IMG/VR virus record: IMGVR_UViG_3300027983_002389
DNA: 64,000 nt
Direction: 5' to 3' (one strand)
Source: a virus
Lineage: Duplodnaviria; Caudoviricetes
The stretch's first letter is position 1; every line of letters begins with the position of its first letter. Below are positions 9,547-41,609 of this stretch, piece by piece. The notes beneath the pieces are model-generated. The model did no database searches, was not told the DNA's origin, and was given only the letters and a program-made list of their open reading frames with translations. The position numbers and the translations under genes are program-made.

Positions 9547-9620
9547 GGGGCCGTAGCTCAATCGGTTAGAGCAGCGAACTCATAATTCGTTGGTTCTCGG
9601 TTCAAGTCCGAGCGGCCCCA
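9547..9620 (+). tRNA. tRNA with CAT anticodon (Ile2 or elongator Met), no encoded CCA
   Basis: GGGGCCG/CGGCCCC-A acceptor, GCTC/GAGC D stem, GCGAA-CTCATAA-TTCGT, CTCGG-TTCAAGT-CCGAG. Confidence 0.93.
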
Positions 9621-9763: not shown

Positions 9764-10300
9764 CACATTATCTTTGCAAAAACCAAATTCTTGTCTTTCA
9801 ATGAACTCATAAATAACGCCAGTCAATTCTGAAGGCTTGGTGAACACTTGAGTTAAGCCGGGACACTTCATTGGCTCGGTGGATGTGAATTCAGCATATC
9901 CAGCCGTTTGCCATTGCTTCATTGTTTTCTCGACGCTTTCGACTTGATAGGCAATGTGGTGAATGCCTCCAATGCCATTGCGAGCCGCAACCCAATTTGC
10001 GACAATGGACCCAGGAGTACCGTCGCTGACAAAGATTTCAGGTGCCATATGGTATTCCAGAGATCTATGCCAAGCAGGAACAGAATGACCATTCTGTTCA
10101 ATGTTTGGAACTCCTTCTAAAATCCACGGTAAACTAGCCACTTTCTTTTCGGGCGGCTCCAGTGCAATGCACTGCGCTGTTTGTCCATCTCCGAAGTCGA
10201 TGGCAAACTCCTGTTGGACGTGATAGCCCAAGGCGTTGATAAAGAAATTCGCTGTTTTCCAGCGGTCGTTCACACGATATGCAATGTGGTCTAAACGCAT
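9731..10300 (-). CDS. VOC/glyoxalase-superfamily protein (HPPD/epimerase-like)
   Basis: MRLDHIAYRV, GGIHHIAYQV, LTQVFTKP...YEFIER...GF; start at 10300 after AAGGAG. Confidence 0.8.
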   Translation of the reverse strand: MRLDHIAYRVNDRWKTANFFINALGYHVQQEFAIDFGDGQTAQCIALEPPEKKVASLPWILEGVPNIEQNGHSVPAWHRSLEYHMAPEIFVSDGTPGSIVANWVAARNGIGGIHHIAYQVESVEKTMKQWQTAGYAEFTSTEPMKCPGLTQVFTKPSELTGVIYEFIERQEFGFCKDNVRALMESTKGI

Positions 10301-19309: not shown

Positions 19310-19414
19310 ATCACATCAAAAGCCGGATATTCGATATATTCGGCTAAAGTTTGATTGTGGTCTGCCGATATAACTAACAACTACAAACCACTTTCGCCGA
19401 ACTGGAAAACACTC

Positions 19415-21034
19415 ATGTCAAAGAAACTTGGAAAATCCAGCTATCCTGCTGGTCACGGAGCAAGCGATTTTCAATGTTTTGGTCCCCCTGCTCTGGAAGA
19501 TGGCAATTTTGACACCTGCAAGATCGCCGATATGGGATCATTCTCACAGGAAGAAAAGGACTCGAATAAGTATTACCACGCAGCCGTGGTGAAGTCCAAA
19601 ATCTCCAACGCATTCTACACATATTTCGAGTGGGGCCGTGTCGGCGCATCGTCGCCACAGTTCCAGATGATTGAATGTGCCAACGAAGCTGAATCGCAGC
19701 GTGAATTCGCCGCTCAGTGCCACGATAAAAACGACAAGCGTGGCGTGTGGTCTACTGTCGCTGGTCTTCGTACTCTGACAGCTAAACCCGGCAAGGACGT
19801 ATATTTGGTTCGTCAATTGACAACTCGCAGCACTGGTCTGCCTGACGCCAAGACAATCAAATATATTGATCCTAATACTCCGAAAAAGCCTGATCCCAAG
19901 GCGGTATCTGGTTCGGTCGTCAAGAAGTCTTCAAAGAAAGCCGATGCGCATACGAGTCGTTTATTGTCCGATTTGATCGGCGGCACGATTAAGTACACCC
20001 GTTCGGCGATGGCTGATGATAGCCTACCTACTCAGACGGCTATTGACCAAGCCCGCACCATTATCACTGAGGCGCAGAAGCGTGTTGGTGCTGTGGGTGA
20101 TGATTTGGACGATCAAATTGCAGATAAAGAGCTTCGGGTATATTCGTCCGAATTGTATCGGCGTATTCCGAAGGTCAAAGCTGTCGGCACACCTGATAGT
20201 GTGTGGATTCTGAGTGGCAACAACATCCTGTCTTGGCAACAGGACTTAGACGCCTTTGAGTCTGCTCTGACGGGACAGGCCCAGGTCGAAAACGATAGTG
20301 ATTCCGATCCGTTCCACGGTCTGCCGCTTCACATGGAGTGGATTGACCCCAAGACTGATCTTGGTAAATTCCTCACCTTTTGGTGGCCAAAGGCGACGGC
20401 AAATCGTCACGGCCATATTGGGTCGATGAAAATTAAGAATCTGTGGAAGGTGGATCGTCACGGTGACGACGAAAAGTTCACCAAGACACAGGATAAGATT
20501 TATTCTGAAATTGCCGGGGCCAAACTTAGTGAGTCCCCATTGTTTCAGCCCAGCGAACGGCACGATGTTGATCCAAAGCGTCGTGAAGTATTCAGTGGTT
20601 CCAATACTGCTCTATTGTTTCACGGAACTCGTTCAGTTAACGTGAAGGGCATCTTGGAGACAAATTTCCGTCTGCCAAAACAATTGGTCGGAGTGCCAAT
20701 TGCCGGTGCTATGTTTGGCCCGTTGCACTATGAAGCTGATGATTGGAAAAAATCAGCCGGATATACGTCGCTTCGGGGTTCAATCTGGTCTGGCGGTAGC
20801 GGTAGCGTTGCTGGGCGGTCTGCCTTTATGTTTGCTAACGATGTTGTTTTGGGAGAACCATATGTTGCTCCTGGACCTCATGGTTATCAGAATGCACCGA
20901 AAGGAACTCATTGCATTTTTGGTATGGGCAAAAACCACGGCAAGAATCGTAATAGTGGAGTTGAAAACAACGAGTGGGTTGTTCCTGATATTTCGCAAGT
21001 TCGCATCAGATACTTGGCAGAATTTGATTCTTGA
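19415..21034 (+). CDS. PARP-like ADP-ribosyltransferase (WGR, helical and catalytic domains)
   Basis: NKYY...EWGRVG; LLFHGTRS.N..GIL, GAMFG..HYEAD..KSAGY, NNEWVV...IRYL (H-Y-E triad). Confidence 0.85.
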   Translation: MSKKLGKSSYPAGHGASDFQCFGPPALEDGNFDTCKIADMGSFSQEEKDSNKYYHAAVVKSKISNAFYTYFEWGRVGASSPQFQMIECANEAESQREFAAQCHDKNDKRGVWSTVAGLRTLTAKPGKDVYLVRQLTTRSTGLPDAKTIKYIDPNTPKKPDPKAVSGSVVKKSSKKADAHTSRLLSDLIGGTIKYTRSAMADDSLPTQTAIDQARTIITEAQKRVGAVGDDLDDQIADKELRVYSSELYRRIPKVKAVGTPDSVWILSGNNILSWQQDLDAFESALTGQAQVENDSDSDPFHGLPLHMEWIDPKTDLGKFLTFWWPKATANRHGHIGSMKIKNLWKVDRHGDDEKFTKTQDKIYSEIAGAKLSESPLFQPSERHDVDPKRREVFSGSNTALLFHGTRSVNVKGILETNFRLPKQLVGVPIAGAMFGPLHYEADDWKKSAGYTSLRGSIWSGGSGSVAGRSAFMFANDVVLGEPYVAPGPHGYQNAPKGTHCIFGMGKNHGKNRNSGVENNEWVVPDISQVRIRYLAEFDS

Positions 21035-28781: not shown

Positions 28782-29306
28782 ATGAGTCTGCCAGTTCTCA
28801 ACGACACAATTGAATGTGATTGCACCAAATGTATTTCGGCTTGCAAAAAGAAGCCGGGTTGGTTCTTGCAAGAAGAAATTAAGCCTGCTGCTGAATTGCT
28901 TGGTTTGACCGAACAGGAATTATTTAATCAATACCTGTCGGTTGATTATTATTATGTCGATCCGAGTTCATTGCTGTTTGTATTGTCCCCAGCAACCCTA
29001 AATACCACGCCAGGAAAAGAGTTCCCATTGGACCCTAGTGGGCAATGTGTCTTCCTTACTGAAGAGGGTAAGTGTTTAATTCATGCTGCCAAGCCGTATG
29101 AATGCAAATCATACGATCACAGAAAGAAAGACGAAGATCGAGACGAAGCATCTGGTCAACATCTAGCCGTTGCTGAGTCTTGGGTTCCTCATAAAGACTA
29201 TATTGCCAATCTATTGAGTCGAGAGCCAGAAGTGGCAACACCGAACCCATTGGAGATGTTGCAATTCTCTTTGACACTCTTTGGCACATTGTTGGGCAAA
29301 ATATGA
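28782..29306 (+). CDS. YkgJ/CxxCxxCC-like zinc- or iron-chelating protein
   Basis: CDCTKCISAC..PGW, CVFL...CLIH..KPYEC. Confidence 0.75.
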   Translation: MSLPVLNDTIECDCTKCISACKKKPGWFLQEEIKPAAELLGLTEQELFNQYLSVDYYYVDPSSLLFVLSPATLNTTPGKEFPLDPSGQCVFLTEEGKCLIHAAKPYECKSYDHRKKDEDRDEASGQHLAVAESWVPHKDYIANLLSREPEVATPNPLEMLQFSLTLFGTLLGKI

Positions 29307-35241: not shown

Positions 35242-35307
35242 ATTCCCAATGAGTAGAGCGGCGAACTCTAAATTTGCTGGTTGTGGGTTCGATTCCCATC
35301 GGGAACG
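35242..35307 (+). pseudogene. Degenerate tRNA with CTA anticodon
   Basis: GCGAA-CTCTAAA-TTTGC and GTGGG-TTCGATT-CCCAT arms intact; 5' D-stem strand missing and acceptor mismatched. Confidence 0.7.
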
Positions 35308-35312
35308 CTTTA

Positions 35313-35383
35313 GCTCCGTTGGTATAGAGGTTGTGCCGGGAACTCTAAATTCCCAGAGGCAGGTTCAAGTCCTGTACGGAGCA
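35313..35383 (+). tRNA. Amber suppressor tRNA (anticodon CUA), no encoded CCA
   Basis: GCTCCGT/ACGGAGC-A acceptor, GTAT/GTGC D stem, GGGAA-CTCTAAA-TTCCC, 4-nt variable loop, GCAGG-TTCAAGT-CCTGT. Confidence 0.88.
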
Positions 35384-35401
35384 TTTTTTCAAGGTGATGA
35401 C

Positions 35402-35773
35402 ATGCAAGTAAATGTAAACGGCAAATCGTTCAATGTTCGTGATGGTGCCAATATCAGCATTACCAATAACGTCTTGTACGTTGATGGTCAAGAATATGTT
35501 GGCGATGGCTACGATTCCAAAGAATTCAAAATCGAGATAACTGGTGGCGTTGCCAATGTCAAAGTCGAGCGTGGAAGCGTAGTTGTTCACGGTGACGCAG
35601 GACCAGTCAATGCTGGTGGTAATGTCACCTGTGGCAACATATTTGGTGGGATTGATGCTGGTGGTAATGTCACCTGTGGCAATGTTGCTAATACAATTGA
35701 TGCTGGTGGCAATATTACCTGTGGCTCGGTCGGTGGCAATGTTGTCGCCGGTGGCAATGTTCATCACCAGTAG
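35402..35773 (+). CDS. Gly-rich beta-helical repeat protein
   Basis: Repeats of AGGNVTCGN; start is ATG 35402, downstream of the tRNAs. Confidence 0.75.
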   Translation: MQVNVNGKSFNVRDGANISITNNVLYVDGQEYVGDGYDSKEFKIEITGGVANVKVERGSVVVHGDAGPVNAGGNVTCGNIFGGIDAGGNVTCGNVANTIDAGGNITCGSVGGNVVAGGNVHHQ

Positions 35774-40001: not shown

Positions 40002-40460
40002 ATGACTCTTTAGGTATCAGCCCCGACCCGTAAAAGCCACGTTTACATTTTTGTACGTCGTGACCTACCGCCTGCACAGATTGTTGTGCAGGCTTCGCAC
40101 GCTGCTTTTGAAGCAGCCTCTCTTCATACCCCTGAACTCGACCACCCGCACATCGTCTTACTTGGTTTTCGTGACCAAAGAGAACTTGAGCGTGCGCTTC
40201 GGAGAGTTCAATCTTCGGGGTTTCAGGTCTGCCCATTTTTCGAGGCCGACCGTGGTGACGAACTTACTGCTTTCGCCACCCAGCCCATTTCTAAATCTCA
40301 GCGTTCGTTTTTTCGCAGATATAACTGCTTGAGCGACGATTTGCTGTTCTCTGGATTCACAAAGGGCAAATCAAAAAATATATCCTCAGCCGAAGGTCCG
40401 TCCATTGTGGACGCTGATCCCGGAGAGGGTGCGAAACAATTACAGGAAGCATATACATGA
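40002..40460 (+). CDS. Peptidyl-tRNA hydrolase 2-like protein with in-frame TAG at codon 4
   Basis: GGAG RBS, then MTL*VSAPTRKSHVYIFVRRDLPPAQIVVQASHAA...IVLLG...EL...FFEAD...LTAFATQP. Confidence 0.8.
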
Positions 40461-40717: not shown

Positions 40718-41512
40718 ATGCAATGTGAAGAGTGCCATGAATCGTCATCGGAATATCCCGGTTGTCCACTGGTACTAGCAACCGAGTATATCCAAACAGG
40801 CTGGTATTTAACCAATACTGGCAAGCGGGTGTATTGGTCCAATAAGGCTTACATCGAAGAGAAGGTGCCAAAACACAGCCACGAGGGAACGTGGATTGCT
40901 TTCTGGTTAGGGAAGACCGGATACGACTATGGTTTAAGTGAGTATTACTTTCAGAATGAATCAGATCGGGATAGGTTTCTCGCCGCAACCCCGATCTTTA
41001 CCCTTGGCGAGAAGTACGAAAAGGAAAATGATATGACGACAATGACCGCAGAAAAGGCCGTTCACCAAAGCAAATGGGGACACCACCCCATCAGCCGTGA
41101 GGCGAGCCAGAAGCTCCGTTTCATCAATGGAGTTTATGCAAAGGCCCAGCACTTGGCTGGTGCTTGGGAGCGTTGGGAACGTAAATTGCCTGAGAACCGT
41201 GTGGTGAGAAGGGCAGTGAAGGACGACAAAGGAATGAAGATCGGCACAGAGATCGTCAAGGATGCCGCTGGCAATCCTGTGGCGTGGCTTGAACCGGGAA
41301 TCTGCCCTTTGTTCCACGAGAAGGTTCCTGGCCACATTAAGTATGGTAGCTATGTCCGTGGCGTTGCCAAGGATAATGGCTTCGGCGACAAGATTCTCTT
41401 TGCCTCTCGTCAGGCACGGACTCCTCAGCCGACCCCGGAAGAAGTTCTGTCCTTCCCCTTCACTGAGGAAGAGATTGACCGTCTTTATGAGACGGTCAAG
41501 GCTTGGGAATAG
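40718..41512 (+). CDS. Hypothetical protein (probable in-frame fusion; internal RBS and ATG at 41033)
   Basis: AAGGA-N7-ATG inside the ORF. Confidence 0.65.
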   Translation: MQCEECHESSSEYPGCPLVLATEYIQTGWYLTNTGKRVYWSNKAYIEEKVPKHSHEGTWIAFWLGKTGYDYGLSEYYFQNESDRDRFLAATPIFTLGEKYEKENDMTTMTAEKAVHQSKWGHHPISREASQKLRFINGVYAKAQHLAGAWERWERKLPENRVVRRAVKDDKGMKIGTEIVKDAAGNPVAWLEPGICPLFHEKVPGHIKYGSYVRGVAKDNGFGDKILFASRQARTPQPTPEEVLSFPFTEEEIDRLYETVKAWE

Positions 41513-41609
41513 TTGAATTTGGCGCTGGACGCCAATACCGAATTGCAGATTAACTTTCACAGGTTTATCGGCAAGATTGGAAGTCAAACAGTCAGATATA
41601 TCTGATTGT

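What the first reader, a model, noticed from the sequence alone, without database searches (positions are those of the whole stretch)
35242..35383. Intact amber-suppressor tRNA plus a decayed second copy in a genome that still stops at TAG
35313-35383 folds into a full cloverleaf with CTA at 35345-35347. A dissimilar CUA tRNA just upstream has lost its 5' D-strand. Recognisable genes (csrA, ACP, ARH, DUF1003) end properly at TAG, so this is selective suppression rather than code 15. The GCTCCGT acceptor, U13-G22 pair and 4-nt variable loop resemble tRNA-Glu, and G1-C72 would disfavour GatCAB amidation, so Glu insertion is my guess. Two different CUA tRNAs suggest lasting selection for suppression.
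Basis: partly seen in the sequence, partly recalled or inferred. Interest (0 to 1): 0.8.

Follow-up and report, generated by a model that had tools for sequence, protein, structure and literature searches.

The report
Phage amber-suppressor tRNA with decayed twin
A giant uncultured phage that uses the normal genetic code carries one working UAG-reading tRNA and the wreck of a second, and the working one most likely exists to read a deliberate UAG placed four codons into a nearby tRNA-hydrolase-like gene, which would explain the orphan suppressor tRNAs of large phages.

Summary
35313-35383 is a sound tRNA with anticodon CUA ("type B"; Rfam 50.4 bits). 35242-35307 is a broken second CUA tRNA ("type A"; 22.7 bits), 7 nt short where the 5' D-stem strand should be. 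Its orthologue is intact in a 340-kb relative. An independent assembly has the identical tRNA region.

Type B is kept in three lineages, with all 21 pairs preserved, five of them through double changes. The window and the whole relative use the standard code: about 0.9 coding density, and TAG ends 22-25% of ORFs.

The best target is the Pth2-like gene at 40002-40460, whose codon 4 is TAG. No other start codon keeps its first beta-strand. This start-proximal TAG recurs in 36 of 58 IMG/VR homologues and in eight cultured phages or public phage genome records. 36 of the 58 loci have a CUA tRNA within 10 kb. One locus has a TGA gate beside a UCA tRNA.

The Glu guess is not supported. Type B's body is closest to Bacillota tRNA-Trp, and type A resembles tRNA-Lys.

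This scan has noted the suppressor/Pth2 pairing before on other DNA (36 notes, at least 33 genomes). I found no paper describing it. No expression or charging data exist.

The parts
35313..35383 (+). Type B tRNA(CUA), intact. G1-C72, A73, 7-nt D-loop, 4-nt variable loop, anticodon CTA at 35345-35347, no encoded CCA.
   Evidence: ARAGORN. Rfam 50.4 bits. Cloverleaf fold, z = -3.45. All 21 pairs kept and 5 double changes across 3 lineages. Identical in an independent assembly.
35242..35307 (+). Type A tRNA(CUA) pseudogene. Anticodon arm (CTA at 35268-35270) and T arm are intact. G1 has become A, about 7 nt covering U8, A9 and the 5' D-stem strand are missing, and the D-loop GG is altered.
   Evidence: Rfam 22.7 bits, below 29. 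Not called by ARAGORN. Intact orthologue in G001 at 182011-182084, 59.2 bits. 87% identical over 54 nt to Shenzhenvirus Sup-CTA tRNAs.
35308..35312 (+). 5-nt spacer (CTTTA) joining the two tRNAs. In G001 a 200-aa GRDP-like ORF lies here instead.
   Evidence: Sequence. G001 sequence and ORF L021:2098-2700.
35384..35389 (+). Run of six T directly after A73. Possible end of the tRNA transcript (inference only).
   Evidence: Sequence. The terminator scan found none.
40002..40460 (+). Pth2-like (peptidyl-tRNA-hydrolase-2 family) gene that can be read in full only if the TAG at codon 4 is decoded. This is the proposed target of the suppressor.
   Evidence: SD GGAG plus ATG 40002. The first alternative start, GTG 40086, lies after the beta-1 strand. 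Pfam PTH2 E = 0.004-0.009. Family profile against PDB Pth2: 24bt_A 3.5e-7 and 2zv3_A 1.8e-6, aligned from beta-1.
40011..40013 (+). In-frame TAG, the 'gate', at codon 4 of the Pth2-like gene.
   Evidence: Conserved in the window, G001, L032 and L033 although codon 3 changes from CTT to CAC. The same start-proximal TAG is in LR756511, ME3, GAP32, BF, Arash, RsoM2USA, Xoo-sp13 and CM1, and in 36 of 58 IMG/VR loci.

Best explanation
Type B (35313-35383) is a functional phage amber-suppressor tRNA in a huge phage that otherwise uses the standard code.

Its selected job is not to recode the genome. It decodes one programmed UAG, at codon 4 of the Pth2-like gene at 40002-40460. That enzyme is therefore made only when, and in proportion as, the charged phage tRNA(CUA) outcompetes RF1 at that codon.

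Type A (35242-35307) is the dead remnant of a second, older suppressor of a different body type, which type B has made dispensable in this lineage.

Shown: tRNA integrity, structural selection on type B, decay of type A, standard code, conservation of the gate, and the gate/tRNA co-occurrence and linkage.

Inferred: transcription, processing, CCA addition, charging, the residue inserted, and the regulatory purpose. The residue is probably not critical, because it sits in a variable N-terminal tail. My rough odds are Lys 35%, Gln 20%, Trp 15%, Tyr 10%, Glu under 10%, with the remainder for any other residue.
For: 1. tRNA quality.

2. Selection on type B. Three distinct sequences keep 21/21 pairs. 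Five pairs change on both sides (three in the anticodon stem), while the loop CUCUAAA is invariant. Slid controls reach only 29-59% pairing.

3. Type A. It is intact in G001, broken here and absent in L032-L034.

4. Standard code. No in-frame TAG occurs in long ORFs. Density is 0.89-0.90 under code 11 in every 20-kb bin of the 340-kb relative, and TAG makes up 22-25% of stops.

5. The gate. ATG-ACT-CTT-TAG has a Shine-Dalgarno site and no start codon that would retain beta-1. The TAG is kept in 4 genomes of the clade while its neighbour codon changes. The Pth2 profile alignment begins at beta-1.

6. Cultured and public phages with the same gate each carry exactly one tRNA(CUA): ME3, GAP32, BF, Arash, RsoM2USA, LR756511, Xoo-sp13 and CM1. 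RaK2 has neither the gate nor a CUA tRNA.

7. IMG/VR, 58 non-duplicate homologue loci. 36 are TAG-gated. 36 have a CUA tRNA within 10 kb, at a median of 852 nt. 11 of the 12 loci with a single tRNA have CUA.

8. Locus L130 has the gate as TGA, with a tRNA(UCA) about 200 nt upstream.

9. A scan of G001 and the extended window for other start-proximal TAG gates found only this gene to be convincing.

10. Literature: the XacN1 authors found two CUA suppressor tRNAs and no target (PMC5852040).
Against: - There are no expression, processing or aminoacylation data. CCA is not encoded.
- The tRNA is 4.6 kb from the gate here, not adjacent.
- TAG ends about a quarter of genes and is not followed by backup stops more often than other stops (p = 0.6). 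An efficient suppressor would therefore be costly, so efficiency must be low, timed or context-dependent.
- 7 of 16 ungated homologues also have a CUA tRNA within 1 kb, and 10 of 36 gated loci have none within 10 kb (Fisher p = 0.065). The tRNA-Pth2 tie is therefore more than the gate alone, or the contigs are incomplete.
- In L130 and ScoobyDoobyDoo a GTG follows the stop, so readthrough is not strictly required there.
- The phage also encodes an RF1-type factor that would oppose UAG suppression.
Confidence: 0.68

Rival explanations
1. The tRNA(CUA) and the Pth2-like enzyme form a functional pair in which the tRNA is mainly the enzyme's substrate, partner or regulator. For example, the hydrolase could clear peptidyl- or mis-acylated suppressor tRNA, or the pair could counter a host tRNA- or translation-targeting defence. 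On this view the early stop codon is only a secondary tuning device.
For: Linkage is as tight in ungated homologues: 7 of 16 have a CUA tRNA within 184-972 nt. 36 of 58 loci overall have one within 10 kb, and 11 of 12 single-tRNA loci carry CUA. The family lacks the two-residue 'GK' segment of canonical Pth2 in the profile alignment, so its chemistry may differ.
Against: It does not explain why a matching stop codon sits at codons 2-7 in 36 of 58 homologues, nor why the gate codon and the anticodon switch together in L130. No biochemical data exist.
Confidence: 0.17
2. The suppressor serves partial code-15 recoding of late or structural genes that lie in the parts of this genome outside the window.
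For: Phage-encoded CUA tRNAs, tRNA synthetases and release factors are the hallmark of recoded phages (bioRxiv 10.1101/2021.08.26.457843). About 235 kb of the 299.5-kb contig was not examined here.
Against: The 340-kb relative, which shares this locus, shows no bin where TAG read-through raises coding density, and it uses TAG for 22% of stops. The release factor is RF1-type (PxT motif), not the RF2 that the preprint reports in TAG-recoded phages. The window and flanks show no interrupted genes.
Confidence: 0.05
3. The TAG after three codons is a true stop. A tiny leader ORF (minigene) would regulate the hydrolase gene by termination, drop-off or re-initiation, and the CUA tRNA would have some other general role, such as low-level read-through of host or phage genes or insurance against nonsense mutations.
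For: Short ORFs followed by a stop are known regulators, and lambda bar minigenes provoke peptidyl-tRNA drop-off (my own knowledge). Some homologues have a GTG or ATG soon after the stop (ME3 annotation, ScoobyDoobyDoo, L130, Xoo-sp13).
Against: In the window, G001, GAP32, BF, Arash and CM1 there is no ATG, GTG or TTG between the TAG and the conserved beta-1 strand. Re-initiation would then give a truncated fold. It leaves the genome-level co-occurrence with a matching suppressor unexplained.
Confidence: 0.07
4. Both CUA tRNAs are decaying passengers, for example former sense tRNAs with anticodon mutations, and have no function.
For: Type A is plainly decaying here. The neighbourhood is indel-rich, with about 6 kb and a 200-aa ORF present in G001 but not here.
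Against: Type B keeps every pair through five compensatory double changes, with an invariant CUA loop. It is syntenic in three lineages.
Confidence: 0.03

Closest known systems
Stop-codon-recoded phages (TAG read as Gln, 'code 15'; crAss-like, Lak, Agate, Jade) with phage-encoded suppressor tRNA, aaRS and release factor (Borges et al., bioRxiv 10.1101/2021.08.26.457843)
   Same: A phage-encoded tRNA(CUA) overrides a host stop codon. Translation-factor genes accompany it: an RF in this genome, and TyrRS plus a TrpRS-like gene in the relative G001. An in-frame stop delays or conditions expression of a gene.
   Different: Here only one gene carries the in-frame TAG. TAG remains a frequent true stop (22-25%). 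Coding density is normal under code 11. The factor is RF1-type rather than RF2.
Orphan CUA suppressor tRNAs of standard-code jumbo phages, e.g. Xanthomonas phage XacN1 (PMC5852040)
   Same: One or two CUA tRNAs in a standard-code jumbo phage that also encodes a peptidyl-tRNA hydrolase.
   Different: That paper read through the 18 TAG stops and found no target. Here the candidate target is a TAG placed after the start codon of the Pth2-like gene, a position that gene callers miss.
prfB (RF2) autoregulation by an in-frame UGA with +1 frameshift
   Same: An in-frame stop early in a translation-factor gene makes output depend on how efficiently that stop is decoded. This phage's own RF1-like gene copies the device as CUU-UAG-C.
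   Different: The Pth2 gate needs in-frame readthrough by a dedicated tRNA, not a frameshift. The CUU before the TAG is not conserved: it is CAC in G001 and L032.
Synthetic suppressor-tRNA feed-forward loop for leak-free expression (PMC7969014)
   Same: A gene with an early amber codon is expressed only when a co-encoded suppressor tRNA is present.
   Different: That system is engineered. This one is natural, and its inputs are unknown.
Shenzhenvirus (T5-like Aeromonas phages AhSzq-1, Akh-2, TS3) tRNA-Sup-CTA
   Same: The type A remnant is 87% identical over 54 nt, from the D-stem 3' strand through the T arm, with the same CUA loop.
   Different: The acceptor stems differ. Those phages gave no Pth2-like match in my search. 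The window copy is broken.

Membership tests
tRNA (Rfam RF00005) | Full cloverleaf scoring at or above the 29-bit gathering threshold | tested here: met
   Type B scores 50.4 bits over model positions 1-71.
tRNA (Rfam RF00005), type A copy | Full cloverleaf scoring at or above the 29-bit gathering threshold | tested here: not met
   22.7 bits, local match to model 10-63, D-stem pairs flagged as non-standard. The orthologue in G001 scores 59.2 bits.
Functional (selected) tRNA gene | Base pairs maintained by compensatory change among relatives | tested here: met
   21/21 pairs paired in 3 distinct sequences and 5 pairs changed on both sides. Only 6 of 500 shuffles reach this. The sample is small: three lineages.
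Code-15 recoded phage | Many genes, especially late or structural ones, interrupted by in-frame TAG, with coding density rising when TAG is read as sense | tested here: not met
   Window 0.903 vs 0.902 and G001 0.890 vs 0.898. No bin rises except the tRNA-array bin. No long ORF has an internal TAG. The rest of this phage's own contig was not read.
Code-15 recoded phage | TAG rare or absent as a true stop, with RF2 rather than RF1 encoded | tested here: not met
   TAG ends 24/94 and 112/501 ORFs. The release factor has the PxT (RF1) motif and GGQ.
   The D-arm motif scan returned tRNA-Gly and tRNA-Trp only. Identity to G001 tRNA-Glu is 12-35/57, against 45/57 to Bacillota tRNA-Trp. The tRNA has C2-G71, U11-G24 and A73. 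U13-G22, A46 and the 4-nt loop are present. The identity rules come from my own knowledge of E. coli.
tRNA-Pyl (ARAGORN's label) | 6-bp anticodon stem, 3-nt variable loop, 5-nt D-loop, one base between acceptor and D stems | tested here: not met
   The Rfam alignment shows a 5-bp anticodon stem, 4-nt variable loop, 7-nt D-loop and two linker bases. ARAGORN's label is only its name for anticodon CUA. I did not search for pylS.
Suppressor-gated Pth2-like module of large phages (scan-internal; no publication found) | Pth2-family gene with an in-frame stop 2-7 codons after its start, and no start codon that keeps the fold | tested here: met
Suppressor-gated Pth2-like module of large phages (scan-internal; no publication found) | A tRNA with the matching anticodon in the same genome, usually on the same strand and near the gene | tested here: met
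   Type B lies 4.6 kb upstream on the same strand. Relatives.
Suppressor-gated Pth2-like module of large phages (scan-internal; no publication found) | The tRNA is expressed and charged, and the gate is read through | not testable with these tools
   Needs tRNA-seq or northern blots and mass spectrometry.

The most novel reading that the evidence does not exclude
Type B is a tRNA-Trp-derived suppressor whose acceptor end has been rewritten to G1-C72/A73. This is the archaeal/eukaryotic-type Trp identity set, which bacterial TrpRS rejects. The phage's own shortened TrpRS-like enzyme would charge it; that enzyme is 265 aa in the relative and lacks most of the C-terminal anticodon-binding part. 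The result would be a natural orthogonal synthetase/suppressor pair. Together with the UAG-frameshift-gated RF1 and the UAG-gated Pth2-like gene, it would form a phage circuit that uses UAG decoding as its internal signal.
Probability: 0.08. Interest if true: 0.88.

Novelty: new variant of a known kind. Interest (0 to 1): 0.64.

Why it matters
Suppressor tRNAs turn up repeatedly in standard-code phages, and authors have said they could not find what these tRNAs read (XacN1, PMC5852040; phiKp24, PMC8386662).

This locus and its relatives point to a concrete, testable target: a single stop codion-gate, that is, one stop codon placed just after the start codon of a Pth2-like gene. That would be a natural one-gene translational switch built from a tRNA, distinct from genome-wide recoding.

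The window adds three things to that picture:
- Turnover between two unrelated suppressor bodies, one dying and one under selection.
- Evidence that the inserted residue is probably not the point.
- Coexistence with an RF1-type gene that uses the same stop codon as a frameshift sensor.

It also has a practical consequence. Gene callers truncate or miss these gated genes (BF and GAP32 annotations).

Tried and rejected
- No whole genome is held for the window. The ENA record behind L008 cannot be searched.
- The exact type B sequence is not in IMG/VR. Shorter type A and type B patterns found only G001 and a T5-like phage.
- A near-identity DNA search failed on query length. Distant blastn of the locus found only the tRNA-level match.
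- blastn of type B alone gave only weak tRNA-Cys and tRNA-Lys hits in Streptomyces phages (E of 0.004 or higher), so it was not informative.
- Code 15 rejected.
- Glu identity rejected as unsupported.
- Other start-proximal TAG 'gates' in G001 were rejected because a normal ATG precedes the domain: the TPP enzyme at 29050 and the HNH gene at 126537. Three small ORFs have no evidence either way.
- An all-frame orthologue comparison for TAG/sense replacements was too noisy, because non-coding frames also align at about 80% DNA identity.
- A +1 frameshift at CUU-UAG in the Pth2 gene is rejected. CUU is not conserved and the homology is in frame 0.
- No enrichment of backup stops after TAG stops.
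- No sigma-70-like promoter on the + strand and no terminator call near the tRNAs.
- The 12-member Pth2 alignment was too diverse for locus finding, so a 5-member one was used.
- I ran no structure prediction, complex prediction or large protein search.

Full report
WHAT IS THERE

ARAGORN finds two tRNAs in the window: tRNA-Met at 9547-9620 and a 71-nt tRNA with anticodon CTA at 35313-35383. Rfam's tRNA model scores the CTA tRNA 50.4 bits over its full length, against a 29-bit threshold. It folds as a cloverleaf at -29 kcal/mol, z = -3.45. I call it type B.

ARAGORN's label 'tRNA-Pyl' is only its name for the CUA anticodon. The Rfam alignment shows an ordinary class-I tRNA with two linker bases, a 7-nt D-loop, a 5-bp anticodon stem and a 4-nt variable loop.

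Directly upstream, 35242-35307 holds a second CUA anticodon arm (CTA at 35268-35270), a T arm and a 5-bp acceptor remnant. It scores only 22.7 bits, as a local match, and ARAGORN does not call it. I call it type A. Five bases (CTTTA) separate the two, and six T follow type B.

WHERE THE WINDOW COMES FROM

The window is identical to part of a 299,534-bp ENA metagenome contig, at about 183-247 kb, and to several JGI contigs. Its genes are accessory genes typical of a huge phage: ClpX-like, PARP/WGR, AAA ATPases, RNA ligases, SAM lyase, ParB-like, thioredoxin and DUF1003.

An independently assembled JGI contig is identical over all 263 nt between the flanking genes. The CTA anticodons and the truncation are therefore not assembly errors.

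RELATIVES SETTLE THE 'DECAYED COPY' QUESTION

A 340-kb IMG/VR contig, G001, is syntenic at 70-90% protein identity. It has both CUA tRNAs intact: type A at 182011-182084 (59.2 bits) and type B at 182708-182778 (48.7 bits). A 200-aa GRDP-like ORF lies between them.

Against that orthologue, the window's type A has G1 changed to A. It has 7 nt instead of 14 between the 5' acceptor strand and the 3' D-stem strand, so U8, A9 and the 5' D-strand are gone. The D-loop GG is altered. From the 3' D-strand onward it is nearly identical. The intervening ORF and about 6 kb upstream are also absent here.

Three further contigs, L032-L034, have type B at the same place and no trace of type A.

Across the three distinct type B sequences all 21 pairs are kept. 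Three anticodon-stem pairs and two T-stem pairs change on both sides. The acceptor stem, D arm and the loop CUCUAAA are invariant. Sliding the partners drops pairing to 29-59%. Type B is under purifying selection as a CUA tRNA, and type A is being lost.

GENETIC CODE

No long ORF in the window has an internal TAG. TAGs sit at ORF ends. Under code 11, greedy ORF density is 0.90 in the window and 0.89 in G001. No 20-kb bin, apart from the tRNA array, gains from reading TAG as sense. TAG ends 24/94 and 112/501 ORFs.

This is not code 15. The caveat is that about 235 kb of this phage's own contig was not available to me.

TAG-terminated genes are not followed by backup stops more often than others (p = 0.6). 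The genome therefore shows no adaptation to strong global suppression.

THE LIKELY TARGET

The gene starts GGAG-N7-ATG (40002) ACT CTT TAG GTA. The next in-frame ATG, GTG or TTG is GTG at 40086. A profile of 12 family members matches solved Pth2 structures (24bt_A E = 3.5e-7, 2zv3_A 1.8e-6), with the alignment beginning at the strand 'Y-I-F-V-R-x-D'. That strand lies upstream of the GTG. Nine of the 12 members hit Pfam PTH2. A complete domain therefore needs the TAG to be read.

The TAG is conserved in the window, G001, L032 and L033, while the codon before it changes from CTT to CAC. This also rules out a CUU-UAG frameshift.

G001 alone has a second in-frame TAG, at codon 121, where the window has AAG (Lys). 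All downstream indels are multiples of three. This is a weak hint that the tail is translated and that Lys is acceptable there.

THE SAME DESIGN IN OTHER PHAGES

Homologues with a TAG at codon 3-4:
- Acinetobacter phage ME3: M-T-TAG
- Cronobacter phage GAP32: M-A-Q-TAG
- Serratia phage BF: M-T-H-TAG
- Salmonella phage Arash: M-L-TAG
- Ralstonia phage RsoM2USA: M-L-TAG
- the 595-kb uncultured phage LR756511: M-T-H-TAG
- Xoo-sp13 (M-K-K-TAG) and CM1 (M-K-TAG), where the Pth2-like domain is fused behind an HD-like domain

Each of these genomes has exactly one tRNA(CUA). In ME3 it is one of only five tRNAs and lies about 430 nt upstream of the gene. RaK2 starts the gene normally and has no CUA tRNA among its eight tRNAs.

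In IMG/VR, 58 non-duplicate loci encode a homologue. Of these, 36 have the M-x(0-6)-TAG gate, and 26 of the 36 have a CUA tRNA within 10 kb. Overall 36 of 58 loci have a CUA tRNA within 10 kb, at a median of 852 nt, and in 29 of those 36 it lies upstream of the gene. Of the 12 loci that hold a single tRNA, 11 hold a CUA tRNA.

In L130 the gate is TGA (ATG GAA TCG TGA), and a tRNA(UCA) sits about 200 nt upstream.

Two observations temper the simple gate model. Seven of 16 ungated homologues also have a CUA tRNA within 1 kb, so the gated-versus-ungated contrast is weak (Fisher p = 0.065). And some homologues have a start codon right after the stop. The tRNA and the enzyme are therefore tied together by more than the gate.

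A scan of G001 and the extended window for other start-proximal TAGs found nothing else convincing.

WHICH AMINO ACID

I scanned one genome for each of 185,579 species for type B's D-arm motif plus a T-loop, with the D-stem positions left free. The scan returned five tRNAs: three tRNA-Gly(UCC) and two Bacillota tRNA-Trp(CCA). The Trp tRNAs match type B at every wildcard position.

Type B's body (positions 8-64) shares 45/57 with those tRNA-Trp, against 37/57 with the Gly tRNA and at most 35/57 with any G001 tRNA, including its three tRNA-Glu. About 23 of those positions were fixed by my search pattern. The excess over Gly, 22 versus 14 of the free 34, is the fair measure.

The acceptor end differs from bacterial tRNA-Trp: G1-C72 and A73 rather than A1-U72 and G73.

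Type A resembles G001's tRNA-Lys(CUU) (57/74) and the suppressors of Shenzhenvirus phages, LR756511 and BF (54-55/73).

Suppressors of different phages have different bodies and discriminators. The gate codon lies in a variable N-terminal tail. The residue is therefore probably not critical.

From my own knowledge of E. coli amber suppressors, U35 draws LysRS, especially with A73, and GlnRS, especially with G73. That is the basis for my odds of Lys over Gln over Trp over Tyr over Glu.

G001 encodes a bacterial-type TyrRS (tyrS, 260 bits). It also encodes a short TrpRS-like protein, 265 aa, scoring 107.7 bits against a 176.75-bit cutoff and matching only profile positions 6-222 of 328. This feeds the low-probability orthogonal-pair reading.

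TWO CUA tRNAs

Eight of the 36 IMG/VR loci that have a CUA tRNA carry two or three of them, and the copies are mutually dissimilar (48-57 of about 73). This count includes G001 itself (L114). In L115, a 532-kb phage that is the closest outgroup, a type-B-like (A73) and a type-A-like (G73) tRNA lie 2 nt apart.

Keeping two different suppressor bodies is thus a recurrent design. This lineage has reduced it to one.

RELEASE FACTOR

About 9 kb before the window lies an RF1-type gene (PxT and GGQ motifs). Its catalytic frame has no start codon. It is reached from a short GTG-initiated frame that ends ...TGT CTT TAG C. This mirrors the prfB site but uses UAG, confirming note e1-5482733. G001 has CTT TAA C at the same place.

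In this phage UAG is therefore a sensor codon in two translation genes. The suppressor and RF1 would act on both in opposite directions. This is inference.

LITERATURE

- The XacN1 authors found two CUA suppressor tRNAs, read through the 18 TAG stops and found no target (PMC5852040).
- The phiKp24 authors call the role of its suppressor tRNA open (PMC8386662).
- Recoding papers treat suppressor tRNAs as code-change tools.
- Four full-text searches found no description of a suppressor-gated Pth2 gene.
- The scan's own notebook holds 36 notes of this pairing in at least 33 other genomes. Within the scan this is therefore a repeat.

VERDICT

What is specific to this window:
- the turnover from type A to type B
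- the Trp-like body of type B with a non-bacterial-looking acceptor end
- the 4.6-kb spacing between the tRNA and the gate
- the companion UAG-gated RF1

Noticed in passing
L110:571-700 (about 9.4-9.5 kb before window position 1): The RF1-type release factor gene (PxT, GGQ) has its catalytic frame reachable only by a +1 slip at TGT CTT TAG C. The relative G001 has CTT TAA C at 129977.
   Followed up: partly
G001 187994-187996 (L021:7994-7996), aligned with window 40362-40364: G001's Pth2-like gene has a second in-frame TAG, at codon 121, where the window has AAG (Lys). Downstream indels are multiples of 3. G001 is also the genome with type A intact.
   Followed up: partly
L021:2098-2700 (G001 182098-182700): A 200-aa GRDP-like, His/Gly/Cys-rich ORF sits between the two CUA tRNAs in G001. 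It has been cleanly deleted in the window.
   Followed up: no
L130:9725-9801 and about 9976-9987: In a 172-kb IMG/VR phage the Pth2-like gate is TGA (ATG GAA TCG TGA) and a tRNA(UCA) lies about 200 nt upstream. GTG and TTG follow the stop.
   Followed up: partly
L041:1429-2226 and L040:1279-2379 (G001 76357-77154 and 301241-302341): The relative encodes a short TrpRS-like protein inside the tRNA array and a full bacterial-type TyrRS. The TrpRS-like protein is 265 aa, scores below the trpS cutoff and lacks the C-terminal third. ARAGORN finds no tRNA-Tyr in G001.
   Followed up: partly
L115:205-352: A 532-kb IMG/VR phage has a type-B-like (A73) and a type-A-like (G73) CUA tRNA only 2 nt apart. 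They are in the opposite order to the window.
   Followed up: partly
window 40718-41605: The 264-aa ORF ends at TAG 41510. The 30 codons after it stay in frame and are identical at the amino-acid level in L032 ('LNLALDANTELQ...'). This is a possible readthrough extension, but it could simply reflect DNA conservation.
   Followed up: no
G001 whole genome; window plus flanks: The base after TAG stops is A in only 10/94 cases in G001, against 102/338 after other stops. In the window genome it is 8/26 against 36/82, so the trend is not consistent. Most enterobacterial-phage gates are TAG-A.
   Followed up: no
L094:268-276 and 811-864 (Mycobacterium phage ScoobyDoobyDoo): The annotated peptidyl-tRNA hydrolase starts at a GTG directly preceded by GTG-TAG. 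A tRNA(CUA) lies 180 nt downstream, inside a tRNA array.
   Followed up: no
L098:9112-9186 (Stenotrophomonas phage CM1): ARAGORN calls an odd tRNA with anticodon UUA (ochre) in addition to the CUA tRNA. Its T-loop is unusual.
   Followed up: no
window 35402-35773: The gene immediately after type B encodes a repetitive Gly/Asn/Val-rich protein that resembles bactofilin by eye, with no Pfam hit. It follows type B in all three lineages.
   Followed up: no
window 19355-21034: A 559-aa protein with WGR and PARP catalytic domains.
   Followed up: no
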